DNA from: an archaeon
Lineage (GTDB): Archaea > Nanobdellota > Nanobdellia > SCGC-AAA011-G17 > GW2011-AR17
Direction of reading: 5' to 3'
Length of the DNA: 64,000 nucleotides
Assembly: GCA_043814545.1 (NCBI GenBank)
Contig: JBDRJY010000004.1
Coordinates: 10,788-74,787 of the forward strand
This document shows, piece by piece, positions 24,107 to 51,688 of the stretch. The translations under genes and the position numbers were made by a program. Every line of letters starts with the position of its first letter. Position 1 is the first letter of the stretch. The notes beneath the pieces were generated by a model. That model was given only the letters and a program-made list of their open reading frames with translations. It was not told the DNA's origin and did not search any database.

Positions 24107-24224
24107 GTTGGACGGTCAAAGTGGCCTGGTTCCACCGGTTCCCATTTCGAACACCGAAGTGAAATAGGCTTACGTTCCTTTGTTGTACTGCTCTTTGAGC
24201 GGGAAGCTGGGAAAGCTGTCCACC
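24107..24224 (+). rRNA. rrf: 5S ribosomal RNA (stand-alone)
   Basis: CCCATTTCGAACACCGAAGTGAAATAGGC, ACGTTCC..GTACTG and CTGGGAAAG match universal 5S loop and helix elements. The termini pair (24109-24115 TGGACGG with 24216-24222 CTGTCCA, one G-U). A T6 run follows. Confidence 0.9.
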
Positions 24225-37968: not shown

Positions 37969-39114
37969 ATGGAAACAGCCTCTAAACAGCTAACCAACTT
38001 TCTTAGGAACCTAGTTAACGTGCTAGATTACTGGTTTTACGAGGCAATACACTCTTTTAGAGTACAAAACCCCTTGCCAGAGGTAAAGAGAATCTTGGTA
38101 GTTGAAAGGTTGTCAGTGGGAGATATGGTTTCGGTTACTCCTGTCCTAAGAGCTTTACACGAAAGATTTCCTAAAGCAAAGATAGACATTTTAGTTAACC
38201 CTCATATTAAAGATTTGATCGAAACCTTGCCTTACTTAAACAAGGTTTACAATTATTCTGACAAAGAATTAAAAATTAATTATCCACAGATAGTACAAGA
38301 ATATAAAAAAAACAATTATGATTTGGGTGTAATAATTAGGCATGGCACGTACCAGATATCAAAACTTCTTAAAGATTCTAAAGTAAAATTTAGGATAGGG
38401 TCAGCTAAAGCCGGTTTGTTAGTTGGAAGAGGTTTTTTCTTGCACAAAAAATCGAAAGCATATTTGAAAACAAGACATGTAGTTGATTTAAACTTAGATG
38501 TTATAAGAACATTAGGAATAAATCCTAAGAATCCTAAAACTGAATTAATCGTTCAAGACGAAGTCAAAAACCAAGTTGCAAAAAAATTAAACTTAAACAA
38601 AAAAGATTTCGTAATAGGGATCCATCCTGGCTCAAAAGGAATCTGTTCAATGAAATATCCTTCACATTTATGGCCAATAGAAAGATATGCTTATGTTGCT
38701 GACGAGCTAAGTAAAAAATATAAAGCAAAAATAGTTTTTTCTGGAGCAAAAAACGAATTACCTTTAATAAAAAAGATAGAATCTTTAATGAAAACAAAAC
38801 CGATTATTGCAGCAGATCTTAACATGAAAGAATTCATAGCTTTGATAGACAGAATGGATTTATTATTCAGTAATGATACAGCGGCAGCACATATTGCTGC
38901 AGCATTAGACACACCGTTAGTAATAATTTTTGGACCGCAAACACCCAAGTTATGGAAACCATGGGGTGATAAAGTCGTAGCCTTATACAAAAACAATAAA
39001 TGTACTGCTTGTCAACGGTATGAATGTAAACTTAAGACTGTAGAATGTCTTAAGGCAATAAGTACTACGGAAGTTTTAAATGCTATAAATCAAGCAATGG
39101 AATGGGTAAGATGA
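37969..39114 (+). CDS. Glycosyltransferase family 9 (heptosyltransferase-like)
   Basis: RILVVERLSVGDMVSVTPVLRAL N-terminus and C-terminal LFSNDTAAAHIAAALDTPLVIIFGPQTP are typical of the RfaF/WaaC-type GT9 fold. Confidence 0.78.
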   Translation: METASKQLTNFLRNLVNVLDYWFYEAIHSFRVQNPLPEVKRILVVERLSVGDMVSVTPVLRALHERFPKAKIDILVNPHIKDLIETLPYLNKVYNYSDKELKINYPQIVQEYKKNNYDLGVIIRHGTYQISKLLKDSKVKFRIGSAKAGLLVGRGFFLHKKSKAYLKTRHVVDLNLDVIRTLGINPKNPKTELIVQDEVKNQVAKKLNLNKKDFVIGIHPGSKGICSMKYPSHLWPIERYAYVADELSKKYKAKIVFSGAKNELPLIKKIESLMKTKPIIAADLNMKEFIALIDRMDLLFSNDTAAAHIAAALDTPLVIIFGPQTPKLWKPWGDKVVALYKNNKCTACQRYECKLKTVECLKAISTTEVLNAINQAMEWVR

Positions 39115-40523
39115 ACAAACCTGTAGCGTTAGCAAAATTGGAAAAGTATTTTGAAAACATGAGCAGGGGCGGTTTCTATTTAGACAATGCGAACCATCCA
39201 ATTTGGGGTGTGGTTAACCCGACAAAACTTCCTCATACTTTCCAATATTATGGAATTATTCAAGGTTACCTTAATTTGTTTGATAATTTAGGCAAAGAAG
39301 AATATTTAGAAAAGGCAAAGGTGGCAGGAAATGCTTTATGTAAGTTACAAAGGCGTTCGGGCCAATACAAGTTCGACCTTTTCGAGTTTAATGATAGGAA
39401 AACTTTTGGCACGACCTTAATCCATAACGTTTTACCGTCGATATCTTTGATTTATTTAGCTAAAGAAACTAAAGACATGAAATATTTTAAAGTAGCGAAA
39501 CGCAATATTCTTTGGTCATTTGCAAGGTTATGGAAAGGCGATTGTTTATCTGGTTGCATAAACCAAGACATGTCAGCAGCTGAAGCTATCGCTTCTTTAT
39601 ACTTGATTGAAAAAAATAAAAATTATCTTAAGAAAGCTAAAATTGTTGCAGACTGGTGCGCCAATTATCAAATTAAGAAAGGTAAACACCAAGGCAGTTT
39701 CATTCGCGGTTTAGGCGAGGAAGAAATGGTTATACCTTGGTACACTGCTAAGACTGCTTTATCTTATTACAATTTATTTTTAATCACTCATGACAAAAAA
39801 TATTATGACATTGCAAAGAAAGCTACTTTGTTTCTTAGGGAACATGTTGTAAAGAACGGTCTTTTACATTGGTATTACAAAGCTAAGTTGAGGAAAGAAC
39901 CTTATTTAATTGCGCCAACAGGTTTAGTATATTTATTGTTTGAAATATTTGACATTTCTTACAAGCCAGAAATTTTGAACTATCAAACGCAAAATGGCGG
40001 TTATCCTTCGGCAAGAGGTGCCGGTAACGAGTTAGACTTACAAACAACTTCTAGCTGGAACCAGTTTATGTTTTTGTATTTATCTTACATTGTAACAGAA
40101 AAGTTACCTACAAAATTTGAGCTTAAAGAAGATGATATTCTTGTAAGCAAACCTAAAACTTTTTTGAAAGGTAAAGTGAAAGGGTTAAGTAAAGTAAACG
40201 GTTTTGTTGACTTAATTCAAGATCGTTATGTTTTAAGTACTGCAAGAATTTTTAACGGAAAGTTTTTGATACCTTGGAACCCTGGAACTTATGATTTAAG
40301 GATAAGACCTAATGCTGCACGATGGAAAGTGTTACCTGTTGATAAAACTACAAAAAAAGTTTCAACTTTTGTCTTGGACTATTCTTTGTTCCAAATATTT
40401 TACGATTTAGAATATATTCTAACAACCATAATGGTAAAAAATTTTAACAATAGTTTGTTTGACGACTTGCCTAAACTAAGGTTTGCAAAAAAGTATTTGA
40501 TAAAAAAATTAAAACGAGCCTAA
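39102..40523 (+). CDS. Hypothetical protein, possibly alpha/alpha-toroid repeat fold
   Basis: 473 aa overlapping the GT9 stop by 13 nt. Recurrent Q-x-x-G-x-(Y/F) elements (LQRRSGQYKF, KGKHQGSF, QTQNGGYPS) are reminiscent of terpene-cyclase or prenyltransferase-type repeats. Weak. Confidence 0.4.
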   Translation: MGKMNKPVALAKLEKYFENMSRGGFYLDNANHPIWGVVNPTKLPHTFQYYGIIQGYLNLFDNLGKEEYLEKAKVAGNALCKLQRRSGQYKFDLFEFNDRKTFGTTLIHNVLPSISLIYLAKETKDMKYFKVAKRNILWSFARLWKGDCLSGCINQDMSAAEAIASLYLIEKNKNYLKKAKIVADWCANYQIKKGKHQGSFIRGLGEEEMVIPWYTAKTALSYYNLFLITHDKKYYDIAKKATLFLREHVVKNGLLHWYYKAKLRKEPYLIAPTGLVYLLFEIFDISYKPEILNYQTQNGGYPSARGAGNELDLQTTSSWNQFMFLYLSYIVTEKLPTKFELKEDDILVSKPKTFLKGKVKGLSKVNGFVDLIQDRYVLSTARIFNGKFLIPWNPGTYDLRIRPNAARWKVLPVDKTTKKVSTFVLDYSLFQIFYDLEYILTTIMVKNFNNSLFDDLPKLRFAKKYLIKKLKRA

Positions 40524-41789
40524 ATCGATTCTGTTAGAATAAATTCTATCTTCATTTAATTTACAAATTAACCTGCAATAAGTTTTCACTAAACTTTGCG
40601 GCATTTTAGCAACAGTTTTCCGAATCAAATCATTTTTCATTAAAATCGAGTTCATGTAAAGCAATGTTGTGCCTAAATAAACAAGATTAGAATAATTGTT
40701 ACGTTGTTTAAGTCCTAAATAAAACGGTCTTTGTCTACTAAATAATTTTAAAAAGTTCATACGAGCAAAAACAGTTTTTTTCTTGTAAACTAACATCGCA
40801 CCTTGTGATGTGATGATAGCATCGTTTGACACGGGTTTAGATTCGACATACTTCGATGCTTTGTCTAACAAAACTTGGCCTTTATGAGTTCTTGTTAAGA
40901 CTAAGGTACAGTTTTCTCCGCCTTCAACACTCCATGGATCACCGAAAGAAATGTCAGCAAGTTCGTTAGTCTGGTCAACGCACAATGTACAACGTTTAGG
41001 CGCAAACAATTGCGTTATATGTCCATATTCGTGTTTAGGTATTTTAACCCTTTTACCGTCGTAAGTTTCAACTACAAAGCCGTTTGGTTTCTCTCCAGAC
41101 CTGTAAGCAACAGACTTAACATCATCTTCGTTAACACCAACAGTTTCGAACAAATAACGCGTACCTAAACTACTCATTGCATAACCGCAAAATAATCCTA
41201 AACAATATTTTATTCGGTCTTTCAAGATTGGATCCTGCATTTGCGCTTTACGTATTCCATGTAAGTGGCAAGGTAAACCTACAACTGCATACTTACCTTT
41301 ACATTGTTTAATTTCTTTAAGACCTTCATTGATAGGGAAAGGTAAATACTTTGAACCTTGCGCTTTGACCAACATTTTTTTATCACGAGCAATATAACAA
41401 TAAGGTTTGTTATTATCCATGCCGACAACTAGGGCACCGTCAATTTCTTTCTTGTCTAAGAGATAACAAAGTAAAGCTGTTATTGCACCTCCTGAAGAAG
41501 CATTTTTACGCATGGAATCATTTTTTGCTTTGGTTAAGTTCGTGCTAATCACTTCACCGTAAACAGAATTAACTTTAGTTTTATTAAAAACAAATTTGTT
41601 AAGCGTACGAAAGTCTACAACTTCTCCTGGGCAAGATTTCTTACACTGCGTACATTTGGTACAATCAGAATTTACATGCGGTTTAAACCCTCTTAATTTT
41701 TGGATATAAATAGAATCGTAATTACATACGCCGTTACAAGTCCCACACTGTGTACACAATCCTTTATTATAAACATGTTTGATATTCAT
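40509..41789 (-). CDS. FrhB-like (coenzyme F420 hydrogenase/dehydrogenase beta family) protein with N-terminal 2x[4Fe-4S] ferredoxin domain
   Basis: CTQCGTCNGVC and CTKCTQCKKSCP ferredoxin motifs, then ASSGGAITALLCYLLDKKEIDGALVV, typical of the FrhB/FdhB flavin-binding family. Confidence 0.75.
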   Translation of the reverse strand: MNIKHVYNKGLCTQCGTCNGVCNYDSIYIQKLRGFKPHVNSDCTKCTQCKKSCPGEVVDFRTLNKFVFNKTKVNSVYGEVISTNLTKAKNDSMRKNASSGGAITALLCYLLDKKEIDGALVVGMDNNKPYCYIARDKKMLVKAQGSKYLPFPINEGLKEIKQCKGKYAVVGLPCHLHGIRKAQMQDPILKDRIKYCLGLFCGYAMSSLGTRYLFETVGVNEDDVKSVAYRSGEKPNGFVVETYDGKRVKIPKHEYGHITQLFAPKRCTLCVDQTNELADISFGDPWSVEGGENCTLVLTRTHKGQVLLDKASKYVESKPVSNDAIITSQGAMLVYKKKTVFARMNFLKLFSRQRPFYLGLKQRNNYSNLVYLGTTLLYMNSILMKNDLIRKTVAKMPQSLVKTYCRLICKLNEDRIYSNRIDLGSF

Positions 41790-42784
41790 TTTTTCAATAA
41801 GGTTCTCAGTTTCCAGTAAATTGGGTTAATCCAAAAGATAGACACGTTACACCGACGGTAACATTTTTTACAATGGAAAAACTTTTTACGTTTTTTATAC
41901 GCTAAACTAGATTTCCAAATGGAGGTAAAACTTTGCTTACGCAAATCTCCCCATGGTTTCTTGTTAAAACAAGGCTGGACAATACCCTTAGAACTTATAA
42001 AAACTTCATAACGGCCAGCATAACAAGGCACAGTACGTTCTTCAGCTTTCAATCTTTCTTGAAGGAAAAGATCATAGGTACGTTTGCCTGTATATTTTTG
42101 GATAACTTTCATTTGACGAAGAATATCTTCAATTTGTTCGCTGGTAAACTCAAATTTTTTATCTTTAATATCACCGAACCAGTTTTTAGCACTTTCAGCG
42201 TTAGTAAAACTAAAATTATACTTGCGATATCTCATGAATGTTGGTAAAAGATGTTTATAGTTCTCTTTGGTTAAGGTCATACTCAATGTTAACCGTTTAC
42301 CTAAACCATATTTTTCAACAATTTTAATACACTCGTCAACTCTTTCTAAAGAACCTTTAACACCACGTATTTTCTCGTGTACTTCTTTAGGCCCGTCGAC
42401 GGAAAAGGTTATACCTCCTATATGTTTGGAAGATTTCTGTAAAAACCGTTCTAGCATCTTAGGAATTAGACCATTAGTACTGATAGCAGGCTTCACCCCT
42501 GTTTTTTTATGTACGAAAGCAACAATTTCATTAATATCTTTACGTAATAAAGGCTCACCGCCAGTAAGAGTTACAGAAACTAAAGAATCTAACATTGGAG
42601 AATTAAAAATTTGTTTTATTTCAGATAAAGACAATTCATTTTTCTTAGCAGTCTGCCAAAAGTTACAGAATGTACATCTACTGTTACAATTTTCAGTCAC
42701 AGTTAATACTAAGTATAAAGGTTTAATTGGATAAAAAAACTGTTGTTTTTTCATACGCAAATATTTTTTTAAAAACGCAATCAT
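41786..42784 (-). CDS. Radical SAM protein with C-terminal Cys-rich (SPASM/twitch-like) region
   Basis: VTENCNSRCTFC (CX3CX2C). C-terminal VPCYAG...GIVQPC...HCKKCYRRC. Confidence 0.8.
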   Translation of the reverse strand: MIAFLKKYLRMKKQQFFYPIKPLYLVLTVTENCNSRCTFCNFWQTAKKNELSLSEIKQIFNSPMLDSLVSVTLTGGEPLLRKDINEIVAFVHKKTGVKPAISTNGLIPKMLERFLQKSSKHIGGITFSVDGPKEVHEKIRGVKGSLERVDECIKIVEKYGLGKRLTLSMTLTKENYKHLLPTFMRYRKYNFSFTNAESAKNWFGDIKDKKFEFTSEQIEDILRQMKVIQKYTGKRTYDLFLQERLKAEERTVPCYAGRYEVFISSKGIVQPCFNKKPWGDLRKQSFTSIWKSSLAYKKRKKFFHCKKCYRRCNVSIFWINPIYWKLRTLLKK

Positions 42785-44286
42785 TTCAAGCCCACCTTTT
42801 GTTTAATTAAATCTATGATAAACTTATCTTCTTTATCGATGCATTTTGTTTCTAATAATAACAAAGCATAAAATAATACAACAATAACGCCCAACATAAC
42901 TGACCAGAAGTTACTAACGCCTAACATGGGCTGCAAAAACAATTTAACAACACCGCAAACAAAAACCATTACAAAAAAGATTTTTATTAAAACAAATTTG
43001 AACGGGTTAACTTTTGTAAGATTATAAGTCACAGCTATCATGAACACTGATATTAATAATACTGAAAGGAATGTTGCATAAGCTGCACCGATTATACCAT
43101 AAACAGGGATAAGCAAATAATTTAACACAACGTTTAGCAAAGTACCGAACAAGGTGACGAAAAACACTGTACGCGTACGTTTAACCATTAACAATATTTC
43201 TCTCGACGTAAAACAGAGGTAAAAGATGAAATATCCTATTGCTAAGAGGGTTAAAGTTGAAGCACCTACTGCATACTCAGAACCGAATAAGATACTCAAT
43301 ATTTGTTGTGGAAACAAAACAAAACCTGCTGTAAGAATAATATTCAACATAAAAATCCATTTGGTAGTAGTTTTAAACACATTTTCAAAATCTTTACGCT
43401 TATTCGTGAAAAACAATTGTGAAGCTACAGGTAAAAATAAAACTATTATTGCGTAAGGTATCATTTGCGACATTTGTGCAGTAGGTACAGCTGCGTTATA
43501 GATGCCAACCTGGGCTGAAGTACTAAAATGTCCTAACATAATTGTATCTGTCCAAAGCATGATCACAACTAAAAGTTCTTTAAACAATAAAGGCCAAGAA
43601 TAATTCACTAACTCTTTATTTGAATAAACAGCTTTTATTTTAGAACTAAACACTGGAAAAACTTTTTTCTGGACAAAATATACGGCAAAAATCATACTGA
43701 CAAACAATGCTAAGGCATAACCTAAGGCAGCGCCAACAACACTGAAACCGAAATACAATAAAATTAAGGTAAGAACAACTTTCAGAACATTCTCAATAAT
43801 ATTTTTCGTATACATTTCATATTGTACTTTCTCAAAACCCTTAGCAGTGTTAATAAAAACAGCACGCAACGACTGGAACGGTACAGCGAACGCAAAGATT
43901 TTCAGCAAGATAGCTAACTCCGGCTTATGAAAAAACGATCCAGCTATAAAATCAGATAAGATAAATAATAAAAAAGCAATAAGAAAACTTAATATTAAAG
44001 ATATTTTGAACGCTCCAAGAATAGTACCTTTAATTTTTTGATAATCTTTCTTAACTCTGAAGAACGACACATAACGCAGAACGCCCATGTCTACGCCTAT
44101 CAAAGAAACAATTGCAGTAAACCCAAAGATAGCCATTGCTAATGAAAGCAAACCATATTCAGTAGCGCCTATCCTAGCAACAACTAATCTGTAGAAATAA
44201 GTAAAAAATTTAGATATAAGAATACCAAATACTATGATACCTGCACCAGTTGCCATACGTTTTAAAGAATCTTTTGTTGCGTTCAC
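42781..44286 (-). CDS. wzx: Wzx-type oligosaccharide flippase (MOP superfamily)
   Basis: 501 aa with about 14 TM segments. The Polysacc_synt-like N-terminus (GAGIIVFGILISKFFTYFYRLVVARIGATEYG) is typical of polysaccharide biosynthesis flippases. Confidence 0.82.
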   Translation of the reverse strand: MNATKDSLKRMATGAGIIVFGILISKFFTYFYRLVVARIGATEYGLLSLAMAIFGFTAIVSLIGVDMGVLRYVSFFRVKKDYQKIKGTILGAFKISLILSFLIAFLLFILSDFIAGSFFHKPELAILLKIFAFAVPFQSLRAVFINTAKGFEKVQYEMYTKNIIENVLKVVLTLILLYFGFSVVGAALGYALALFVSMIFAVYFVQKKVFPVFSSKIKAVYSNKELVNYSWPLLFKELLVVIMLWTDTIMLGHFSTSAQVGIYNAAVPTAQMSQMIPYAIIVLFLPVASQLFFTNKRKDFENVFKTTTKWIFMLNIILTAGFVLFPQQILSILFGSEYAVGASTLTLLAIGYFIFYLCFTSREILLMVKRTRTVFFVTLFGTLLNVVLNYLLIPVYGIIGAAYATFLSVLLISVFMIAVTYNLTKVNPFKFVLIKIFFVMVFVCGVVKLFLQPMLGVSNFWSVMLGVIVVLFYALLLLETKCIDKEDKFIIDLIKQKVGLK

Positions 44287-44329
44287 TAGTGCGGGTGTTA
44301 TATATAGGCTTTTTAAAAGTTATGAAACC

Positions 44330-45868
44330 TTATTTTGGCGTGACTTCTAAACCATTTTTAAGCTTGTTATAGAAAGATTCAGGCTCTGTGTCCAGGAAAA
44401 CGCTACTTTTGAACTGGTCCTTCAGTACATTTGCTAAGAAACCTGCAACATTAGTATCAGAACTGATCATGAACGGGTAACCATAATGGACATCAACCCC
44501 TTGGGCAGCGAAGAACATGCCTATTGCTAGAGATTTTTCAGTTATCGGCATAGGACAAGTTATTATGAACGGTAGTTCAGTCATTTCTTTGTTTAGGTTT
44601 TCGCTAACGCGTTTAAGGATTTCAGCGATTCTTGAGTTGTTAACACAAGATCCTAAATGGAAAACTCTTTGTCCATCCATCATACCACGTTTACCAACTT
44701 CGAAAGCTACACAACCTGTTGTTAAAATGATATAATCTTTTTTTAGTTTCTTGAAAACTTGCATCCATTGGTCGATGGGTGTACGTGGGTTAACACAACC
44801 AACCAAACCAATGATACCTTTAACTTCTTTATTCTTAACCATTTGGGAAAGTTTTTTTATGTTAATGTTATCTTCACAAAATCCAGTTGTAACTTCGATT
44901 GATTTAGTTTTTTGTTGAGAAAATAATTTGTTACAATCTTTTCTACGATTTTTTATGTTATCTTTTGCAATAGCAATAATTTTTTTAGCTGCTTCTTGAG
45001 CTTCAGTTTCTTTTGTTATTGGAAGATGTGTAGCGTTGGGCATCTTAGCAATTTCGTTAGTTGTGATTAGTTTGGTATGATAACATCCGCAAAGGTCTGA
45101 CACTGAAGGCATGATACATTGTATGTCTACAACCATAGCGTCGACGATTCCGGAAGCAATAACATTTTCTTGAAGAATAAAGTTAGCAGCCATCGGCACG
45201 CCAAACCTTGCAAGTAACGATGCACCAGTGCAACATACTCCGACTAGGTTAACATCTTTATGTTTTTTAGCTTCTTGTGCTATAGCTGAAGCAAACATAG
45301 GTTCATGTCCGTGCACCGCAATGTTAACTTTGTTTGGGTCTAAACATCCTAAATCCATTTTACCTTTTTTTATTTTAGGTTTGCCTAACCGTTCATCTTC
45401 TAACTGCGTAGCAAAATACATTCCGTAATAACCGTCAACAATACCAACTTTCATACAATTTTTTAAAACATCTTGGTAATCAGAGTTAACACCCATTGTT
45501 GTCATGTGCAACGATTCAGAAATATCTTTGAAATGTTCGAATTTAATTTTAGGGATAATACCTAACTTGTTCCAGAGTTTGTATAAATATGAAGGAGCTT
45601 TATCTTTGATGTAATTAGGAGGATAAGATTTGCTTAAATATTTCATAACATGGTAAGCATGCCCGCAATGTGCTGAAGCGCCTCCTGCTGTGAATCTTAA
45701 CACATTCCTTGCAACTATAAGATCTTGTGTAGCACCGCAAACCCCTTTCTGGTCAGGTTTACAAATGATACACGGCCCCATTAAACAGATTTTACAACAA
45801 AACCCTTGCTTTCCTATGGGACACTGTTTTTGCTTGACACGTTCAGAAATCATTGTAGGTTCAGCCAT
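44330..45868 (-). CDS. CooS-like Ni,Fe-CO dehydrogenase catalytic-subunit homologue (short form, 512 aa)
   Basis: N-terminal C-x7-CC-x2-C-x4-C...GVCGAT..ARN pattern of the D/B clusters. C-cluster ligand contexts are all present: VHGHEP, GVCCTG, DIQCIMP, VGCVNP, TTGCVA, LGSCVNNSR. Confidence 0.8.
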   Translation of the reverse strand: MAEPTMISERVKQKQCPIGKQGFCCKICLMGPCIICKPDQKGVCGATQDLIVARNVLRFTAGGASAHCGHAYHVMKYLSKSYPPNYIKDKAPSYLYKLWNKLGIIPKIKFEHFKDISESLHMTTMGVNSDYQDVLKNCMKVGIVDGYYGMYFATQLEDERLGKPKIKKGKMDLGCLDPNKVNIAVHGHEPMFASAIAQEAKKHKDVNLVGVCCTGASLLARFGVPMAANFILQENVIASGIVDAMVVDIQCIMPSVSDLCGCYHTKLITTNEIAKMPNATHLPITKETEAQEAAKKIIAIAKDNIKNRRKDCNKLFSQQKTKSIEVTTGFCEDNINIKKLSQMVKNKEVKGIIGLVGCVNPRTPIDQWMQVFKKLKKDYIILTTGCVAFEVGKRGMMDGQRVFHLGSCVNNSRIAEILKRVSENLNKEMTELPFIITCPMPITEKSLAIGMFFAAQGVDVHYGYPFMISSDTNVAGFLANVLKDQFKSSVFLDTEPESFYNKLKNGLEVTPK

Positions 45869-45911
45869 AAGTTTTACTTTAGGTTTTAACTAATATAAAC
45901 TTTTCCGTAAG

Positions 45912-45921
45912 GTTTAAATAA
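45912..45921 (+). promoter_or_regulatory. TATA-like box, probably giving a leaderless transcript
   Basis: GTTTAAATAA ends 23 nt before the ATG at 45945. Confidence 0.35.
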
Positions 45922-45944
45922 AATTTAAAGTTTCTAATTGTAAA

Positions 45945-46292
45945 ATGGCTACAGAAATGGTTTTAGGCAGAGATAAAAAGCACCAAACACAAGTTGTATT
46001 AAATACAAATGGTCGATTAAGACGCACTAAATGTATAAGTGAAAAAGTTGTAACTTTTGGTTCAGGTTATATGGAAGTTCTAGTAAGACAAATGGAAAGT
46101 GGCTGGGGAAATAATGCTCGACCTTATGTTGAAGTTGCAGGTAATGTTATATCTGATATTGAGAAAAAAACATACGGGGAAACAGTCCAAGTTTGTCCTG
46201 TTTATGAAGAAAATGAAGGTCTTATACGAGATATGCTTCGTGAAGAAGGTTACCAAGGTCCAGTTTTATTCCCAGAAATCTATGACCTTTGA
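45945..46292 (+). CDS. Hypothetical protein
   Basis: 115-aa ORF with a promoter-like box at standard spacing. No motif recognised. Confidence 0.45.
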   Translation: MATEMVLGRDKKHQTQVVLNTNGRLRRTKCISEKVVTFGSGYMEVLVRQMESGWGNNARPYVEVAGNVISDIEKKTYGETVQVCPVYEENEGLIRDMLREEGYQGPVLFPEIYDL

Positions 46293-46317
46293 TACAAAAC
46301 TTTTATTAACACTTCTT

Positions 46318-47220
46318 TTATTTTTCACATACAGCTACAAGGTTAATTGTAGAATCTAAGTTTTCTTTAACGATTTTAAAATTATTTGTGTTATATTTTT
46401 GCAAGTAAAAATCATTGAATTTTTGAGATTTATTGTTTAAGATATTTCGAACAAAGTTATTAATACTAAATTTTAAGAATGGCGGTATTTGCCTTCGAAG
46501 GTTAAACCTATCTAATCTTGCAATTTTACGACAATGTTTGACTCTTTCTAATTCAACTCTTTGTGTTTCTTCATCGCCCATTACTCCTCTCATTGTGACT
46601 TTTGGAAAAGAAGTTTTAAGAATTTTTTCGAGTTCATCTGCAGTATACTCTTTAATATGAAATATGTTCCATGGTTTTTCACCAGGTTTTACCCTATATT
46701 TTTTATTAGGTGTTGTTAGAATAAGTTTACCGCCTTTTTTTAAAACTCTTTGAAGTTCTTTAACATAACCAGCATCATTTTTTAAATGTTCTATTACATG
46801 AGAAGACATGATTGCGTCAAATGTTTCGTTCTTATAAGGCAACTTTTCTGCATTTAATTGTAAAAATAAACAACTTTCCCTGTATTTTTTTCTAGCTTCA
46901 ATAATTGTTTTTTTATTAATATCTATAGCTATTACTTGGAACCCTTTTTTAGCCAAGTAGTTTGCACCATATCCTTCACCACATCCTGCATCTAAAACTT
47001 CTTTCCCTTTTGGGATGATTGAAGGAATAAATTCATAAACTTTCATTAATTGTAGAAAAAGAAAATATTCTTCTTTTGTATCAAATGAATGAGGATCTAA
47101 ATGATCTCCCCATTTCTTTTTAGATTTTTTATAGATTTTTTTAAATATAAAATCGATTATGATGATTAATATTATTGGCAAAACCACAAAAACAATCCAT
47201 AATCCGGGGTTTATTTCCAT
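46318..47220 (-). CDS. Membrane-anchored class I SAM-dependent methyltransferase
   Basis: N-terminal TM helix, then motif I VLDAGCGEGYGANYLAKKG and post-I/II elements (DAIMSSHVIEHL). Confidence 0.85.
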   Translation of the reverse strand: MEINPGLWIVFVVLPIILIIIIDFIFKKIYKKSKKKWGDHLDPHSFDTKEEYFLFLQLMKVYEFIPSIIPKGKEVLDAGCGEGYGANYLAKKGFQVIAIDINKKTIIEARKKYRESCLFLQLNAEKLPYKNETFDAIMSSHVIEHLKNDAGYVKELQRVLKKGGKLILTTPNKKYRVKPGEKPWNIFHIKEYTADELEKILKTSFPKVTMRGVMGDEETQRVELERVKHCRKIARLDRFNLRRQIPPFLKFSINNFVRNILNNKSQKFNDFYLQKYNTNNFKIVKENLDSTINLVAVCEK

Positions 47221-47354
47221 ATTATTTTTCTATTTATTCCAACTTATATAGTTTGTTACAAAATTTATGATTACTATTAAAGGACTAAATTGAAGTTTAA
47301 CTTAAAATTTGATTTACAGAAATTTTATTAATTAACAATTTTTGGAAGATTATA

Positions 47355-48266
47355 ATGAAAAATCGATTTGGATTGATTTTAAAATTATCTTTAGGCCTAT
47401 TAATATTATATTTCATATTAAAAAAAGTAGGTGTAACTGAATTAGTGAACACTATTAGTCAAATTGATATTTTCTTTTTACCTATGGCTCTTTTTTTCTT
47501 CCTATTGACGCTCTTTTTGGGTGCTCTTAATCTTTATTTTTTATTATGTTATGGATTAAATATTAAATTAAAGTTTTTTAGAATTTTGAAATATTCCCTT
47601 TTATCTTGGAGTTTTGGGATGTTTATTCCAGGAAAATTAGGAGAATTTTCTTTTGCTTATTTTTTAAAGAAAAGAAAAGTGCCGGTTTGGCGTTCATTTA
47701 TCATTTTAACAATGGATAAAATTATTACTTTATTTACATTATTATCTTTAACTTTTATAGGATTTTATCTTTTTCTCTCAGTAAATCAATTTTTGAATTT
47801 ATTAATCTTTTTTTTAATTTTTGGGATGATATTCTTTTATGTTTTAATTATATTTAAAGAAAAAAATTGGCTTAAACGGTTTTTGCCTAAAAAATTTGCT
47901 TTATCGATATCTCAGTTTTCGAATGGTTTTTTTTATATGTTAAAAAAGAGAAAAAAATTGCTTTTTTTAAATACGGGGCTAACTTTTACAAAATGGTTTT
48001 TAAGCGGTATCTTTCATTATTTTCTTTTTTTATCTCTTGGTTTTGACTTAAACTTCGGAATTGTTTTTTTAATCACAGCAATGGTTACGATTATCTCTTT
48101 GATTCCAATAAGTATTTCTGGTTTAGGTGTCCGAGAATCAGCAGCGGTTTATTTATACAGTCTTTTTTTAATACCTGTATACATTTCTTTAGGTGTTGCT
48201 TTAATAGCAGTAACAACTAGCTATATTATTTCTATATTATTTTTTATTAGTTTGAGATGGCGTTAA
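47355..48266 (+). CDS. Polytopic membrane protein, lysyl-PG-synthase-TM / flippase-like family candidate
   Basis: 303 aa with about 8 TM segments. The layout is typical of UPF0104-type proteins that accompany GT2 genes. Assignment by architecture only. Confidence 0.5.
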   Translation: MKNRFGLILKLSLGLLILYFILKKVGVTELVNTISQIDIFFLPMALFFFLLTLFLGALNLYFLLCYGLNIKLKFFRILKYSLLSWSFGMFIPGKLGEFSFAYFLKKRKVPVWRSFIILTMDKIITLFTLLSLTFIGFYLFLSVNQFLNLLIFFLIFGMIFFYVLIIFKEKNWLKRFLPKKFALSISQFSNGFFYMLKKRKKLLFLNTGLTFTKWFLSGIFHYFLFLSLGFDLNFGIVFLITAMVTIISLIPISISGLGVRESAAVYLYSLFLIPVYISLGVALIAVTTSYIISILFFISLRWR

Positions 48267-49244
48267 CATCCGTTCCAAATATGATACTAACTTTTCTTTA
48301 ATTTCTTTTTTAAGTTCTTCAGAAAGGTTTAACTCATCAATCTGTTCATTCCAGTTTATATCAGGTAATTTCGTTAATGTTCCAGTAAAATTTCTACCTG
48401 CTTTAGAAATATTTTCTTCTAATATTCTAGCTTCTTTAGAATTAAACTTTTTAGTTGCAGGAAATTTGGTGATTGCATTCGCACCTGCTAAAAGAACTTT
48501 ATCAACTTCCTCAACCCTACGAGCAGTTGTACCTGCTATAATCTGTAACTTAGGAAACTTTATTCGAGTGTTAGCAATCCACCAAACATAATCTTCAGTT
48601 GAAGGACCTTTTTCATAAGGAGTTTCAGCCACAGGTTTCAAAGCATAAAACGTAATCCGTTTCAAATCATGTTTAGAAATAAAATCATGTAATAACTTAA
48701 GATCTTCTTTCTTCTCACCAAGTCCAATAACAACAGTCATACTTTTTTCAAACCCTTCACAATACTCCAACATTTCTTCATAAGGTTTGATAGGTTTGTT
48801 AGGACAAATTTCGTTATGTAACTCTTCTTTAACAGTTTCAATAGAAGCAACAACACCTTTTACATAGGGTTTAAACTTTTCAAGATCTTCTTTTGCAATA
48901 GCACCAAGGTTCAACCAAATCTTTTCACCATAAATCTCTGCAACCATTTTAGATATAGAAACAAGTTCGTTCATGGAATAAATTTCATAACCGCCAGTCA
49001 AAAACTCAATACGCCAACCTAAGTTTTTAGCTAAAAGAGCTTCAACAGCAACTGAAGGTATACTACGTTTAGCATGCTTAGCATGTTTAATTCTATTTTT
49101 CTGAGTCGAACGGTAACAGAACTTACAAGTTCCAACGCTACAGTACCAGCTAAGGAAGATGCAACGGCCGAACCATACAGTATCCTCAAAGTTTTCCTTA
49201 TACACTTCGTTAGCTTGTTTTAACAATGAATCCATAAGAATCAA
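48237..49244 (-). CDS. Radical SAM protein, BioB/ThiH-like TIM-barrel family, CX4CX2C motif
   Basis: WYCSVGTCKFC cluster motif, with GGYEI, IETV and VIGLGEKKED elements arranged as in biotin-synthase-like enzymes. Confidence 0.72.
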   Translation of the reverse strand: MILMDSLLKQANEVYKENFEDTVWFGRCIFLSWYCSVGTCKFCYRSTQKNRIKHAKHAKRSIPSVAVEALLAKNLGWRIEFLTGGYEIYSMNELVSISKMVAEIYGEKIWLNLGAIAKEDLEKFKPYVKGVVASIETVKEELHNEICPNKPIKPYEEMLEYCEGFEKSMTVVIGLGEKKEDLKLLHDFISKHDLKRITFYALKPVAETPYEKGPSTEDYVWWIANTRIKFPKLQIIAGTTARRVEEVDKVLLAGANAITKFPATKKFNSKEARILEENISKAGRNFTGTLTKLPDINWNEQIDELNLSEELKKEIKEKLVSYLERMLTPSQTNKK

Positions 49245-49258
49245 AGAAAATCATGACT

Positions 49259-49870
49259 TTATAAGCGTTTTCTTAAGTCATATTCACGATAAATAGTAGT
49301 AACCAATTCATTTTCAACAATCAAACTTAATTTAGTAACATCTTGTTTAAAGTTACCTAAACCATGAAAAAATTGTTTAGCATCTTGAATTTGTTCCACA
49401 GAATGTAATCTTTCTAAAGTCAAGTGGGGATCATAAAATTCGCGATAATAAGGCCGACCAGTTTCAGCAACAATTTCTAACTCTTTATCACTTAACTTAC
49501 TTTGATCAATTGAAGGAGAAACATACTTACAATAAAAACGTTTAAACTTGTCAACAACATCATTATGCAAATTACGTAATTTATATTTAGTACGAACATT
49601 AATCACAGCAGTCTTATAATCAGTTACATGTATGGCTCCGTAATTTATTTCAAAGGGTTGGATATGGAGACAAAATAAATCCAAAGGAGAATTCATATAA
49701 TCAATAGACTCTCCTGGCATATCACCTAAATAAAATAAAGAAATATGCGGTATGATTTCACCGTAAGCATAATGTTGTATCCCTTGTTTCTTATTAAAAT
49801 CTTTCACACGCGCAGCGATTTCCCGAGATTCTTCCTTTGGAGGAATTATAGCAATGGTAACTTTGTTCAT
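49259..49870 (-). CDS. 2H phosphoesterase superfamily protein (LigT-like)
   Basis: Two H-x-(S/T)-x motifs: PHISLFYLG and DPHLTLERL. Confidence 0.6.
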   Translation of the reverse strand: MNKVTIAIIPPKEESREIAARVKDFNKKQGIQHYAYGEIIPHISLFYLGDMPGESIDYMNSPLDLFCLHIQPFEINYGAIHVTDYKTAVINVRTKYKLRNLHNDVVDKFKRFYCKYVSPSIDQSKLSDKELEIVAETGRPYYREFYDPHLTLERLHSVEQIQDAKQFFHGLGNFKQDVTKLSLIVENELVTTIYREYDLRKRL

Positions 49871-49926
49871 AGCTGATTACCACCAAATATGTTATTTAAA
49901 GATTATGACGACTAAAGATACAAAAC

Positions 49927-49959: not shown

Positions 49960-51384
49960 ATGGCTAAGGTACTTTTCGTACAAGATATTGACCTGGAATT
50001 TGTAGGTATACAGACATTATCAGCTTGTTTGAAAGCTAAAGGACATAAAACCGATTTATACTCGGCTAATTCTGTAAAAAAACAAGATGAACTTTTCGAT
50101 TATGTTAAAAAAACCAAACCTGACTTGGTAGCATTTTCTATACCTTCAATGGGTTACGAATGGACAGTTGATTTAGCTAAGAAAATAAAAAAAGAATTAA
50201 ATGTCTATAGCGCCTTTGGCGGCCCACACCCAACTTATTACCCTGACTTCATTGAAACGAAAGGGGTAGAGATCACTTGTGTTGGTGAAGGCGAGGGAGC
50301 CATGGTAGAATTGGCTAATGCTTTAGAAAAAAAAGATTTTAATAAAATTAAAACAATAAAAAATATTTATTACAAAGATGATAAAGGTAAGATATATAAA
50401 AATGAGTTAAGAGATTTGATAGACGTTGATTCTTTACCTTGGCCAGACAGAGAGTTACATTACAAAATGTTTCCTCATATTCAAAACTTTTCTAACAAAA
50501 GAGTTGTTGCAACTAGGGGCTGTCCTTACAACTGTTCGTTTTGTTTTAACACTATGTATAAAGAGATGTATCAAGGGAAAGGAAATTATATTCGTAGAAG
50601 AGATCCTAAAAAAATCATTGAAGAAATTAAGTATGTAAGAGATCATTACGGTTTCAAAACTTTATCTTTTGCTGACGAGAATTTCACGACTAACAGAAAA
50701 TGGTTGTATCCTTTGTTAGACATGTACAAGAAAGAAGTAGGCATACCGTTTATGGTTCTTGGTAGGTTTAACGAGATTGACGACGAACTTGCTAGGAAAT
50801 TGAAAGAAGCTGGTTGTTTTTTCATAAGCGTTGGCTTGGAAAGCGGTAACGATTATATCAGAAACAAGATTTTGAATAAGGGTGTTACTAATGCACAGAT
50901 TATCAAAGGCGCTGCTGCGATTAAGAAGTACGGTATTGGATTGTTTACATATAACATGTTAGGCTTACCTCATGAAACTATTAAGGAAGCGTTTGAAACT
51001 TTAGAATTAAATGCGAAGATTGGCGTTGACGTTACTATTCCTACTTTGTTACAGCCTATTAAGGGAACTAAGTTGTGTGACTATATCGAGAAGAATGGTT
51101 TGTTAGCTAAAGGTTTTGACTTAGAACATTTGAAAAGTCATTGGCAAGGTGTTACAGTTAAAACTCCGCATGCTAGACAGATTGAAAACTTACAAAACTT
51201 GTTCATGTTAGGAATATGGTATCCAAAACTAATTCCATTAATGAAAATCTTAGTATATGCACCAAAAAATCCGTTGTATAAAGGTTTCTTAAACTTTAGC
51301 TTGTTAATGAAATATCGTCAAACACGAATGTTAGGATGGTTCGAGTTAATTACAATGGCGTGGAAAGCTAGGAAGAATGTTTGA
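49960..51384 (+). CDS. B12-binding-domain radical SAM protein (class B-like)
   Basis: KVLFVQD...LSACLKAKGHKT...GGPHPTYYPD, then TRGCPYNCSFC. N-terminus most similar to the 25599-27149 paralogue. Confidence 0.88.
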   Translation: MAKVLFVQDIDLEFVGIQTLSACLKAKGHKTDLYSANSVKKQDELFDYVKKTKPDLVAFSIPSMGYEWTVDLAKKIKKELNVYSAFGGPHPTYYPDFIETKGVEITCVGEGEGAMVELANALEKKDFNKIKTIKNIYYKDDKGKIYKNELRDLIDVDSLPWPDRELHYKMFPHIQNFSNKRVVATRGCPYNCSFCFNTMYKEMYQGKGNYIRRRDPKKIIEEIKYVRDHYGFKTLSFADENFTTNRKWLYPLLDMYKKEVGIPFMVLGRFNEIDDELARKLKEAGCFFISVGLESGNDYIRNKILNKGVTNAQIIKGAAAIKKYGIGLFTYNMLGLPHETIKEAFETLELNAKIGVDVTIPTLLQPIKGTKLCDYIEKNGLLAKGFDLEHLKSHWQGVTVKTPHARQIENLQNLFMLGIWYPKLIPLMKILVYAPKNPLYKGFLNFSLLMKYRQTRMLGWFELITMAWKARKNV

Positions 51385-51385
51385 T

Positions 51386-51688
51386 TTACCAACTATCTCT
51401 TTTACTTCTGTAGTCTTCGCCTTTTACTTCAGCACTAACTAGAATTCCTTGGAGTCTTGATAAAAGTCTTCCTTCTTCTACTCCTGCTGTATCATTACCA
51501 TAACCAACTGCAAAAAATTCTGAGGGACTTAAGTTTGATGTAATAATTGCTGCAAGATTTTTCCCTGATTGAATATTTTCAATTTTTTTTATTAATTTTT
51601 GTACATTCTGTGGTCCTTTTTCATGTTTGAACTTAATCAAAAACAACTCTTTTTTGTTCTTTCTTTTCTGAATAAGTGTAAGGTACAT
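51386..51688 (-). CDS. Hypothetical small protein (start uncertain)
   Basis: The ORF overlaps the end of the YgiQ gene by 56 nt if the ATG is used. A TTG at 51638-51640 would give an 84-aa product with an 8-nt overlap. No motif recognised. Confidence 0.4.
   Translation of the reverse strand: MYLTLIQKRKNKKELFLIKFKHEKGPQNVQKLIKKIENIQSGKNLAAIITSNLSPSEFFAVGYGNDTAGVEEGRLLSRLQGILVSAEVKGEDYRSKRDSW

What the first reader, a model, noticed from the sequence alone, without database searches (positions are those of the whole stretch)
40509..45868. Short CooS-like Ni,Fe-CODH homologue in an operon with a flippase, a SPASM-like radical SAM and an FrhB-like flavo-FeS protein
**Arrangement**
- Four same-strand genes, with a 43-bp gap and then 4-nt overlaps, read CooS-like (512 aa), Wzx flippase, radical SAM, and FrhB-like protein with a 2x[4Fe-4S] ferredoxin domain.

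**CooS-like protein**
- It keeps the N-terminal C-x7-CC-x2-C-x4-C...GVCGAT pattern of the D and B clusters.
- It also keeps sequence contexts matching all six C-cluster ligands as I remember them from C. hydrogenoformans CODH-II (H261, C295, C333, C446, C476, C526): VHGHEP, GVCCTG, DIQCIMP, VGCVNP, TTGCVA and LGSCVNNSR.
- It is about 120 aa shorter than canonical CooS.
- No CooF, CooC, ACS or hydrogenase partners are in the window.

**Interpretation**
- A CO-dehydrogenase-type enzyme inside a surface-glycan operon of a reduced archaeon is unexpected.
- Hypothesis 1: with the ferredoxin-domain FrhB-like protein, it forms a dedicated low-potential electron source for the many radical SAM enzymes.
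- Hypothesis 2: it catalyses a different small-molecule or sugar redox reaction.
Basis: partly seen in the sequence, partly recalled or inferred. Interest (0 to 1): 0.75.

Follow-up and report, generated by a model that had tools for sequence, protein, structure and literature searches.

The report
Compact CO dehydrogenase beside glycan operon
A real but unusually short CO-dehydrogenase-type gene lies next to a cell-surface sugar operon in a tiny DPANN-type archaeon, but it is not functionally tied to that operon: the adjacency is lineage-specific, and the enzyme belongs to a widespread compact family for which I found no functional study.

Summary
Four minus-strand genes sit at the stated coordinates. 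The 512-aa protein is a genuine CooS-type CODH that keeps every B-, C- and D-cluster ligand plus His93 and Lys563 (CODH-II numbering). It is 124 aa shorter because of four deletions.

The operon reading does not hold.
- A syntenic relative (L085) has the same glycan island, gene for gene, with flippase, rSAM and FrhB-like genes but no CooS-like gene.
- The 43-bp "gap" is a TATA-containing block that is also conserved upstream of the flippase in that relative.
- None of 37 other loci encoding this short CooS family carries a flippase or FrhB-like gene within 10 kb.
- Four checked FrhB-like homologues sit in glycan loci without any CODH.

The short CooS family is a discrete clade with more than 100 sequence clusters. 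It is mostly found in DPANN archaea, with some Elusimicrobia, Fibrobacter and Geobacteraceae.
- Its recurrent neighbours are POR–PTA–[CooS]–ACK operons, or thiol/peroxide-defence genes (thioredoxin reductase, a CcdA-like protein, a Trx-like protein, rubrerythrin).
- No CooC, CooF or ACS lies nearby.
- The closest solved structure is the rubrerythrin-linked CODH-IV.

The gene is most likely a stand-alone CO/CO2 enzyme coupled to the ferredoxin pool. It is a new member of a known kind. The family is moderately interesting; the proposed operon is not.

The parts
44330..45868 (-). Compact CooS-type Ni,Fe-CODH homologue (512 aa). D-cluster ligands are C16 and C24. B-cluster ligands are C25, C28, C33 and C44. 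C-cluster ligands are H188, C213, C251, C358, C386 and C408. The catalytic residues are H67 and K445.
   Evidence: - Pfam Prismane 348 bits.
- TIGR01702 338.6 bits, below its 478-bit cutoff.
- PDB best hit 6ELQ (CODH-IV), 306 bits.
- Ligand alignment.
- AF2 model pLDDT 87, pTM 0.90; Foldseek TMq 0.88 to 6ELQ.
- dN/dS 0.057 against L083.
45891..45904 (-). BRE/TATA-like element AAAAGTTTATATTA, 23-36 nt upstream of the CooS-like ATG. It is a putative own promoter.
   Evidence: Read directly from the sequence. Promoter function is inferred from general knowledge of archaeal promoters and was not tested.
44297..44326 (-). Conserved promoter-like block TTCATAACTTTTAAAAAGCCTATATATAAC. It fills the 43-bp gap and ends 10 nt before the flippase GTG (its TATATATA core, 44306-44299, ends 12 nt before).
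   Evidence: The block is conserved in L083 and also in L085, which has no CooS-like gene upstream.
42781..44286 (-). MOP/Wzx-type polysaccharide flippase (501 aa). It is the first gene of the flippase-rSAM-FrhB-like unit.
   Evidence: - Pfam Polysacc_synt, MatE and MurJ.
- 75% identical orthologue in L085.
- The start codon position is conserved: GTG here and in L083, ATG in L085.
41786..42784 (-). Radical SAM/SPASM enzyme (332 aa; CNSRCTFC motif). It overlaps the flippase gene by 4 nt.
   Evidence: - Pfam Radical_SAM 82 bits and SPASM 36 bits.
- No NCBIfam equivalog reaches its cutoff.
- 76% identical orthologue in L085.
40509..41789 (-). FrhB-like flavo-FeS protein with an N-terminal 2x[4Fe-4S] ferredoxin domain (426 aa). 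It overlaps the rSAM gene by 4 nt.
   Evidence: - Pfam FrhB_FdhB_N/C and Fer4 families.
- The frhB equivalog scores 92 bits against a 331-bit cutoff, so this is not true FrhB.
- Homologues lie in glycan loci without CODH.
45945..46292 (+). 115-aa ORF of unknown function, divergent from the CooS-like gene. It belongs to the same window-specific indel.
   Evidence: - No Pfam or NCBIfam hit.
- Present in L083 with dN/dS 0.25.
- Absent from L085.
46318..47220 (-). SAM-dependent methyltransferase (300 aa). It is the third gene of the segment that the window has and L085 lacks.
   Evidence: - Pfam Methyltransf_11 and related families.
- Absent from L085 and from L083.

Best explanation
**What it is.** The 512-aa gene is a functional, compact member of the CooS-type Ni,Fe-CODH family. 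It is a homodimer-type enzyme with intact B, C and D clusters. It interconverts CO and CO2 and exchanges the electrons with the cell's ferredoxin pool.

**Transcription.** It is most likely its own transcription unit. It lies in a variable three-gene segment (44.3-47.3 kb) at the edge of a glycan/lipid-modification island. It is not a dedicated component of the flippase-rSAM-FrhB-like operon downstream.

**Role I commit to.** Judging from relatives, the family serves genome-reduced anaerobes in one of two settings:
- next to pyruvate:ferredoxin oxidoreductase, phosphotransacetylase and acetate kinase;
- next to a thioredoxin-reductase / CcdA-like / Trx-like / rubrerythrin cluster.

I commit to CO scavenging that keeps ferredoxin reduced, as proposed for CODH-IV. 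The enzyme would be reversible.

**Shown versus inferred.**
- Shown: family membership, ligand conservation, fold, purifying selection, non-conservation of the glycan linkage, and the recurrent neighbourhoods.
- Inferred: metal content, substrate, direction, ferredoxin as partner, and promoter use.
For: **Identity and integrity**
- Sequence matches.
- 14 of 14 CODH-II functional residues are kept in the window protein and in 11 other family representatives spanning archaeal and bacterial members. The same positions are invariant in a 41-sequence alignment.
- The nearest outgroup, P0241, has lost five of these residues.
- AF2 pLDDT 87; Foldseek TMq 0.88-0.90 to CODH structures, best E-value to CODH-IV.
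- dN/dS 0.057.

**Discrete clade**
- The bit score drops from 646 and 460 to 294 in the search of 1.84 billion representatives.
- In an NJ tree, the short family plus P0241 is monophyletic in 100/100 bootstraps and sits beside E/F-type enzymes.

**Independence from the glycan operon**
- L085 synteny without the CooS-like gene.
- Conserved flippase promoter block.
- 0 of 37 loci with a flippase or FrhB-like gene.
- FrhB-like homologues in CODH-free glycan loci.

**Ferredoxin and thiol context elsewhere**
- PTA>CooS>ACK in four loci. POR is upstream in two of these, and genes overlap by 4 nt in L001.
- POR is adjacent in three more loci.
- (Rbr>)Trx-like>CcdA-like>CBU_0592-like>CooS>TrxR, in full or in part, in nine loci.

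**Precedent.** The CooS-IV operon with rubrerythrin was proposed to act in the oxidative-stress response (PMC1287953).
Against: - No CooC, CooF or nickel transporter was found in the 64-kb window or within ±10 kb in 40 loci. Nickel loading, and therefore true CODH chemistry, is unproven.
- The protein scores below NCBI's equivalog cutoff for CooS (338.6 against 478).
- No ferredoxin gene is adjacent.
- The two recurrent contexts cover only about 16 of 37 loci; the rest are heterogeneous.
- Read-through transcription from the CooS-like gene into the flippase gene cannot be excluded, because no terminator was identified.
- The adjacency is retained in the 94%-identical relative.
Confidence: 0.6

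Rival explanations
1. First reader's hypothesis 1. In this lineage the CooS-like enzyme oxidises CO. Directly or through the ferredoxin domain of the FrhB-like protein, it feeds low-potential electrons to the ten or so radical SAM enzymes of the island. The adjacency is therefore functional.
For: - Same-strand adjacency with only 43 bp between genes, kept in L083/L084.
- The island holds at least 10 radical SAM genes that need a low-potential reductant.
- Some other family members also have radical SAM genes within 5 kb: L002, L003, L021, L023 and L029.
Against: - L085 runs the same island, with the same rSAM set, without the CooS-like gene.
- The flippase unit has its own conserved promoter-like block.
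- 0 of 37 other family loci have an FrhB-like or flippase neighbour.
- FrhB-like homologues occur in glycan loci without CODH.
- The only genomes sharing the arrangement are about 94% identical, so their synteny is uninformative.
Confidence: 0.12
2. The enzyme runs mainly in reverse, as a fermentative electron sink. Ferredoxin reduced by pyruvate:ferredoxin oxidoreductase is re-oxidised by reducing the CO2 released in the same reaction to CO. A partner organism then consumes the CO (interspecies CO transfer).
For: - Tight POR-PORγ-PTA-CooS-ACK operons with 4-nt overlaps in Pacearchaeota/Woesearchaeota-labelled genomes (L001, L041).
- PTA-CooS-ACK in L011 and L040; POR adjacent in L024, L027 and L030.
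- POR supplies both substrates, CO2 and reduced ferredoxin.
- Thermodynamics, from my own knowledge of textbook values: pyruvate → acetate + CO is about -27 kJ/mol and becomes more favourable at low CO.
Against: - CO2/CO (-520 mV) lies below typical ferredoxin potentials.
- The thioredoxin-reductase/rubrerythrin contexts in nine loci fit an electron-donating role better.
- The window contains no POR, PTA or ACK.
Confidence: 0.2
3. First reader's hypothesis 2. The compact protein no longer does CO/CO2 chemistry. Without CooC it assembles an Fe-only or otherwise altered cluster and reduces another small molecule, in an HCP-like or CODH-V-like manner.
For: - No CooC near any family member.
- Score below the CooS equivalog cutoff.
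- The literature reports that clades without maturation genes (C, D) are not classical CODHs (PMC13056359).
- A sister lineage, P0241, has lost C-cluster ligands.
Against: - All six C-cluster ligands and both acid/base residues are invariant across 47-94% identity. Clades C, D and G, whose function is thought to be altered, have substitutions at these positions (PMC6344411).
- Similarity to HCP is marginal, about 29 bits.
- Crystal structures exist of Thermococcus sp. AM4 and D. vulgaris CODHs produced without CooC (titles of 6T7J and 6ONC/6OND). The apoprotein therefore does not need CooC to fold, and the CooC gene need not be adjacent.
Confidence: 0.15

Closest known systems
Carboxydothermus hydrogenoformans CODH-IV (CooS-IV, PDB 6ELQ)
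   Same: - Best sequence match (306 bits) and best Foldseek E-value (TMq 0.88).
- Same D-cluster (C-x7-C), B-cluster and C-cluster ligand set, with His and Lys.
- Like CooS-IV, several family members are encoded beside rubrerythrin and a flavin disulfide-type oxidoreductase (PMC1287953).
   Different: - About 120 aa shorter, with four deletions.
- About 31-34% identity.
- No CooF homologue or CooC nearby.
- Mostly archaeal DPANN hosts.
- In the window itself no redox partner is adjacent.
Thermosinus carboxydivorans 'mini-CooS' / clade G of Ni-CODHs (Techtmann 2012; Inoue 2019, 2022)
   Same: - Short length: 482 aa reported, against 485-530 aa here.
- Many small deletions, with complete metal-ligand motifs (PMC3328121).
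- Not associated with ACS or ECH.
   Different: - Mini-CooS is next to cooF and is described as branching between clade A and all other clades (PMC8776680).
- My NJ tree puts this family beside E/F-type enzymes.
- The clade G-1 reference has Tyr and Thr substitutions (PMC6344411), whereas this family has none.
- No Thermosinus sequence appeared among the best 120 hits of two searches.
- Direct comparison was impossible because the reference sequences could not be retrieved.
Ni-CODH 'clade H' (Inoue et al. 2022)
   Same: - Defined from metagenome-derived CODHs with complete motifs that earlier selection criteria had excluded.
- The dataset has columns for Nanoarchaeota and Iainarchaeota.
   Different: - Membership could not be checked. 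The stored supplementary table is cut before clades G and H.
- I found no functional or contextual description. The 2026 context study excluded clades G and H (PMC13056359).
Hybrid cluster protein (HCP, hydroxylamine/NO reductase)
   Same: Same Prismane superfamily fold.
   Different: - Only about 24-29 bits over the C-terminal third, against 306 bits to CODH.
- TIGR01703 scores 44 bits against a cutoff of 361.
- The window protein has the full CODH ligand set.
FrhB-like (FrhB_FdhB_N/C + 2x[4Fe-4S]) proteins of polysaccharide loci
   Same: The window's 426-aa protein has the same architecture. Like its homologues, it sits among glycosyltransferases, flippases and B12-radical SAM genes.
   Different: - It is not a true F420-hydrogenase β subunit (92 bits against a 331-bit cutoff).
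- Its function in glycan loci is unknown.
- None of the four homologue loci inspected has a CODH.

Membership tests
CooS-type Ni,Fe-CODH | Prismane/CODH three-domain fold | tested here: met
   - Pfam PF03063, 348 bits.
- AF2 pLDDT 87, pTM 0.90.
- Foldseek TMq 0.84-0.90 to CODH structures.
CooS-type Ni,Fe-CODH | C-cluster ligands His261, Cys295, Cys333, Cys446, Cys476 and Cys526 (CODH-II numbering) | tested here: met
   These correspond to H188, C213, C251, C358, C386 and C408. They are conserved in the alignment to verified 1SU6 and invariant in 41 homologues.
CooS-type Ni,Fe-CODH | B-cluster (Cys48, 51, 56, 70) and D-cluster (Cys39, 47) ligands | tested here: met
   B-cluster ligands are C25, C28, C33 and C44. 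D-cluster ligands are C16 and C24, with C-x7-C spacing.
CooS-type Ni,Fe-CODH | Acid/base residues His93 and Lys563 | tested here: met
   H67 and K445 are invariant.
CooS-type Ni,Fe-CODH | Score at or above the NCBIfam equivalog TIGR01702 cutoff | tested here: not met
   338.6 bits against a cutoff of 478. The shortfall is consistent with the deletions, and with the 'hypothetical protein' names in NCBI records.
CooS-type Ni,Fe-CODH | Nickel-insertion accessory protein (CooC) and electron partner (CooF) in the genome | tested here: inconclusive
   None in the 64-kb window or within ±10 kb in 40 loci (Pfam). Whole genomes could not be searched.
CooS-type Ni,Fe-CODH | Ni content and CO-oxidation / CO2-reduction activity | not testable with these tools
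   Requires biochemistry.
Mini-CooS / clade G (or clade H) of Ni-CODH | Phylogenetic grouping with WP_007288589.1, OGP75751.1 or the clade H centroids | not testable with these tools
   - The reference sequences could not be retrieved.
- The stored table is truncated.
- Indirect evidence only: the NJ tree places the family near E/F, and no Thermosinus hit appeared.
Hybrid cluster protein | Equivalog-level similarity to HCP and the hybrid-cluster ligand set | tested here: not met
   - TIGR01703 44 bits against 361; NF003658 39 bits against 367.
- PDB HCPs score 24-29 bits.
Four-gene CooS-flippase-rSAM-FrhB functional operon | Gene linkage conserved beyond near-identical strains | tested here: not met
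   - 0 of 37 family loci.
- Syntenic L085 lacks the CooS-like gene.
- Only the 94%-identical L083/L084 share the arrangement.
Four-gene CooS-flippase-rSAM-FrhB functional operon | Single transcription unit with no internal promoter | tested here: inconclusive
   A conserved BRE/TATA-like block lies in the 43-bp gap and is also present where no CooS-like gene is upstream. No transcript data were available.
F420-reducing hydrogenase β subunit (FrhB) | Equivalog-level score and F420-dependent partners | tested here: not met
   TIGR03289 scores 92 bits against 331.5. No FrhA or FrhG is in the window.
Radical SAM/SPASM | CxxxCxxC motif plus a C-terminal SPASM domain | tested here: met
   - C33-x3-C37-x2-C40 in the translation.
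- Pfam Radical_SAM 82 bits and SPASM 35.7 bits, both above cutoff.

The most novel reading that the evidence does not exclude
The compact (~500-aa) CooS clade, to which this gene belongs, may be a minimal and possibly CooC-independent CODH. Genome-reduced DPANN archaea and a few bacteria would use it as a gas-linked valve on their ferredoxin pool. In one setting it would vent electrons from pyruvate fermentation as CO (POR-PTA-CooS-ACK operons), allowing interspecies CO transfer. In the other it would scavenge trace CO to drive a thioredoxin-reductase / CcdA-like / rubrerythrin defence system. This would be a role for CO in symbiont physiology that none of the papers I checked describes.
Probability: 0.3. 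Interest if true: 0.65.

Novelty: new member of a known kind. Interest (0 to 1): 0.38.

Why it matters
**For the finding as written, little.** The "CODH inside a glycan operon" is a lineage-specific juxtaposition and does not point to new sugar chemistry.

**For the family, more.**
- It is a very compact CooS that still keeps every catalytic and cluster ligand.
- It is abundant in DPANN archaea, whose energy and redox metabolism is poorly understood.
- It was not mentioned in the five archaeal (DPANN) genomics papers I checked.
- The most recent CODH genomic-context study excluded clades G and H, where such enzymes may belong.
- If active, it would be a useful minimal scaffold for CO/CO2 biocatalysis.
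- It would also give CO a role in the redox balance of genome-reduced symbionts.

Tried and rejected
**Hypotheses rejected**
1. Hybrid-cluster-protein identity: rejected on scores and ligands.
2. Conserved four-gene module: searched for flippase, rSAM and FrhB-like homologues in 37 family loci and found none beyond generic rSAM hits.
3. CooC near the gene: a P-loop scan (GKGGxGK[ST]) of 40 loci and the window found nothing. Only one small 2x[4Fe-4S] ferredoxin ORF turned up, 7 kb away in L005.
4. Mobile-element or repeat signature around the 44.3-47.3 kb indel: only short AT-rich chance repeats. Alignment of the LPG-synthase-side intergenic regions was uninformative.

**Clade placement, unresolved**
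5. Placing the family in published clades G, H or mini-CooS did not work.
   - The Inoue 2022 table is cut before clades G and H.
   - The Techtmann paper has no stored supplements.
   - A third homologue search seeded from an Elusimicrobia member returned only the same family.
   - The listing of cluster members gave no names for the ~500-aa distant representatives. These turned out to lack the N-terminal cluster region.

**Technical and labelling points**
6. A BLOSUM-distance NJ run timed out. It was replaced by a Kimura-corrected identity NJ tree, which is only a rough phylogeny.
7. The neighbour cluster first labelled "Grx98" is a CBU_0592-family small membrane protein, not a glutaredoxin. 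The glutaredoxin in L001 is a separate 77-aa gene.

Full report
**1. Observation**

There is a 43-bp gap followed by two 4-nt overlaps.

Pfam assigns them as follows:
- Prismane/CODH (348 bits);
- Polysacc_synt/MatE/MurJ;
- Radical_SAM + SPASM;
- a Fer4 dicluster plus FrhB_FdhB_N/C.

Against solved structures, the 512-aa protein matches CODHs at 244-306 bits, with C. hydrogenoformans CODH-IV (6ELQ) best. It matches hybrid cluster proteins at only about 24-29 bits. NCBIfam's CooS equivalog scores 338.6 bits, below its 478-bit cutoff. This explains why NCBI records call relatives "hypothetical protein".

**2. Ligands**

I wrote out CODH-II from memory and verified that it is 100% identical to PDB 1SU6_A. 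Aligned to it:
- the D-cluster ligands (C39, C47), B-cluster ligands (C48, C51, C56, C70) and C-cluster ligands (H261, C295, C333, C446, C476, C526) are all conserved;
- the catalytic H93 and K563 are conserved as well;
- in window numbering these are C16, C24; C25, C28, C33, C44; H188, C213, C251, C358, C386, C408; H67 and K445.

These positions are invariant in a 41-sequence alignment spanning 47-94% identity. They are also kept in the window protein and 11 other family representatives, while many other CODH-superfamily representatives carry substitutions.

The 124-aa shortfall comes from deletions at CODH-II residues ~107-157, ~413-423 and ~493-520, plus the N-terminus.

An AlphaFold model is confident (pLDDT 87, pTM 0.90). 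It superposes on CODH structures with TMq 0.84-0.90, with the best E-value to 6ELQ.

Against the 94%-identical relative, dN/dS is 0.057. The gene is therefore a real CooS-type gene under purifying selection.

**3. The family**

Homologues of about 485-550 aa fill the hit list. More than 100 clusters at 90% identity lie at 44-94% identity to the window protein.
- Source names include Pacearchaeota, Nanoarchaeota and Woesearchaeota.
- In species-representative genomes they also include Aenigmatarchaeota and Diapherotrites, plus Elusimicrobia, Geobacteraceae, Fibrobacter and a Bacteroidetes MAG.

In an exhaustive HMMER search of 1.84 billion representatives, scores fall from 646 and 460 bits to 294 bits, so the clade is discrete. 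The 460-bit outlier, P0241 (659 aa), has lost C39, C47, C295, C333 and K563.

A rough NJ tree makes the short family plus P0241 monophyletic in 100/100 bootstraps. It places them beside E/F-type enzymes that include CODH-II, not at the base.

**4. Is it an operon with the glycan genes?**

No, on four independent lines.

(a) L085 comes from a 599-kb contig and was reached through the FrhB-like protein (71% identity). It carries the same island colinearly at 70-90% aa identity:
- carbamoyltransferase, B12-radical SAMs, rSAM, LPG_synthase_TM, flippase, rSAM/SPASM, FrhB-like, GH76-like, GT9, GT1, rSAM/SPASM;
- the flippase follows LPG_synthase_TM directly;
- the window's CooS-like gene, the 115-aa ORF and the methyltransferase (44.3-47.3 kb) have no counterpart.

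(b) The 43-bp gap is occupied by TTCATAACTTTTAAAAAGCCTATATATAAC. This BRE/TATA-like block ends 10 nt before the flippase start codon. It is conserved in L085, where no CooS-like gene lies upstream. The spacing fits a leaderless archaeal transcript, which is an inference from general knowledge. The CooS-like gene has its own AAAAGTTTATATTA element 23-36 nt upstream of its ATG.

(c) In 37 non-redundant loci of the short-CooS family with up to 10 kb of flank, no flippase or FrhB-like homologue occurs.

(d) The four FrhB-like homologue loci inspected, at 37-71% identity, lie in glycan loci with GT2/GT4 enzymes, flippases, B12-radical SAMs and LPG_synthase_TM, and without CODH.

Only L083/L084 share the arrangement. 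At 94% identity they are too close for their synteny to be informative. Even there the flank differs: they have no LPG synthase or methyltransferase. This junction is therefore a hot spot of gene-content change.

**5. What surrounds the family elsewhere**

Two contexts recur.

(i) Pyruvate-to-acetate genes.
- PTA>CooS>ACK occurs in L001, L011, L040 and L041.
- POR and PORγ lie upstream in L001 and L041. In L001 the genes overlap by 4 nt or are 23 nt apart.
- POR subunits lie immediately upstream in L024, L027 and L030.

(ii) Thiol/peroxide-defence genes, in L002, L010, L012, L013, L015, L016, L021, L023 and L029. The order, in full or in part, is (rubrerythrin>) Trx-like>CcdA-like>small membrane protein>CooS>thioredoxin reductase. 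The components are:
- a secreted Trx-like CxxC protein;
- a CcdA/DsbD-like membrane protein (Pfam SfLAP, with conserved NPC and TPC motifs);
- a small membrane protein of the CBU_0592 family;
- a thioredoxin-disulfide reductase (TIGR01292, 350 bits against a cutoff of 343; CATC site; consensus lacks the HRR motif).

No CooC-type P-loop protein occurs in any of the 40 loci or in the window.

The window contains none of these partners. It is otherwise a ribosomal-protein operon (1-14 kb) followed by a ~36-kb glycan/lipid island with at least 10 radical SAM genes.

**6. Mechanism**

*Shown.*
- It is an intact CooS-type catalytic subunit under selection.
- Its family is repeatedly co-located with enzymes that make or spend low-potential electrons.

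*Inferred.*
- It binds a Ni,Fe C-cluster, interconverts CO and CO2, and exchanges electrons with ferredoxin through the B and D clusters.
- I favour CO scavenging that keeps ferredoxin reduced. This is the CODH-IV precedent: CooS-IV lies in an operon with a CooF homologue, an NAD/FAD oxidoreductase and rubrerythrin, and was proposed to power peroxide detoxification (PMC1287953).
- The POR-PTA-CooS-ACK operons equally allow the reverse direction, with CO2 reduction as a ferredoxin sink. From textbook values recalled from memory, pyruvate → acetate + CO is about -27 kJ/mol and improves at low CO.
- In the window lineage, reduced ferredoxin from this enzyme could incidentally serve the many radical SAM enzymes. 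Nothing indicates a dedicated link.

**7. Comparison with what is known**

Short CooS forms have been known since Techtmann 2012 (mini-CooS, 482 aa, next to cooF). Inoue 2022 placed mini-CooS in clade G and added a clade H.

I could not obtain the reference sequences or the clade G/H rows of their table. Whether this family equals clade H or clade G is therefore unresolved. The NJ placement near E/F, and the absence of Thermosinus among the best hits, argue weakly against mini-CooS.

Other literature points:
- Inoue 2019 lists only one Pacearchaeota CODH, a 732-aa clade F enzyme fused to an FtrB-like domain. That is another hint of a link between CODH and thioredoxin in DPANN.
- The 2026 genomic-context study excluded clades G and H.
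- Five archaeal (DPANN) genomics papers I checked do not discuss a CODH in DPANN.

**8. Verdict**

- The gene is a new member of a known kind, a compact CooS.
- The specific "CODH in a glycan operon" idea deserves low interest.
- The underlying family, with its two conserved redox contexts and apparent lack of nearby CooC, is moderately interesting and readily testable.

Noticed in passing
window 24400-60300: A ~36-kb glycan/lipid-modification island. It has at least 10 radical SAM genes, six of them with B12-binding domains: 25599-27149, 30687-32069, 49960-51384, 53195-54649, 54636-56054, plus L085-type relatives. It also carries a YgiQ-type rSAM (51633-53129), GT4/GT2/GT1/GT9/PMT_2 enzymes, a YfhO-like protein, a carbamoyltransferase and LPG_synthase_TM. 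This density of B12-rSAM genes is unusual for a small genome.
   Followed up: partly
window 44287-49900 compared with L083 and L085: The junction between the 335-aa rSAM gene (48237-49244) and the flippase gene varies in gene content. The window has LPG_synthase_TM, a methyltransferase, ORF115 and CooS. L083 has only ORF115 and CooS. L085 has only LPG_synthase_TM. No repeats or mobile-element genes were seen.
   Followed up: partly
window 45945-46292 (+): A 115-aa ORF divergent from the CooS-like gene, with no Pfam or NCBIfam match. It is conserved in L083 (88% aa identity, dN/dS 0.25). It was not found next to other family members.
   Followed up: partly
P0241 (659 aa; representative search): The nearest outgroup of the compact family (43% identity). 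It carries a C-terminal extension and has lost D-cluster Cys39 and Cys47, C-cluster Cys295 and Cys333, and Lys563. It looks like a degenerate paralogue lineage.
   Followed up: no
L002, L015, L021, L023, L029 (gene immediately or one gene downstream of the CooS-like gene): A thioredoxin-disulfide reductase (TIGR01292 above cutoff) whose consensus has the CATC site and a GGGNSA-like motif. It has Y-x-x where E. coli TrxR has the NADPH-specifying HRR (the E. coli motif is recalled from memory). It may therefore use a donor other than NADPH.
   Followed up: partly
L010, L012, L013, L016, L029 and others (upstream of the CooS-like gene): A 235-aa membrane protein that hits Pfam SfLAP and has conserved NPC and TPC motifs, resembling CcdA/DsbD thiol-electron transporters. 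It is preceded by a ~147-aa Trx-like CxxC protein with an N-terminal hydrophobic segment, and sometimes by rubrerythrin.
   Followed up: partly
Inoue 2019 supplementary table (PIU75765.1, Pacearchaeota CG06_land_8_20_14_3_00_35_12): A separate, full-length clade F CODH in a Pacearchaeote is annotated as fused to an N-terminal FtrB-like (ferredoxin:thioredoxin reductase) domain. This independently links CODH to thioredoxin reduction in DPANN.
   Followed up: no
window 24108-24224 (+): A 5S rRNA gene (Rfam, 62.6 bits) stands alone between an unannotated 463-aa ORF and the GT4 gene. No other rRNA or tRNA genes are in the 64-kb window.
   Followed up: no
window 40509-40523: The FrhB-like gene and the convergent 473-aa GH76/GH127-like gene (39102-40523) overlap by 15 nt at their 3' ends. 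The same pair is adjacent in L085.
   Followed up: no
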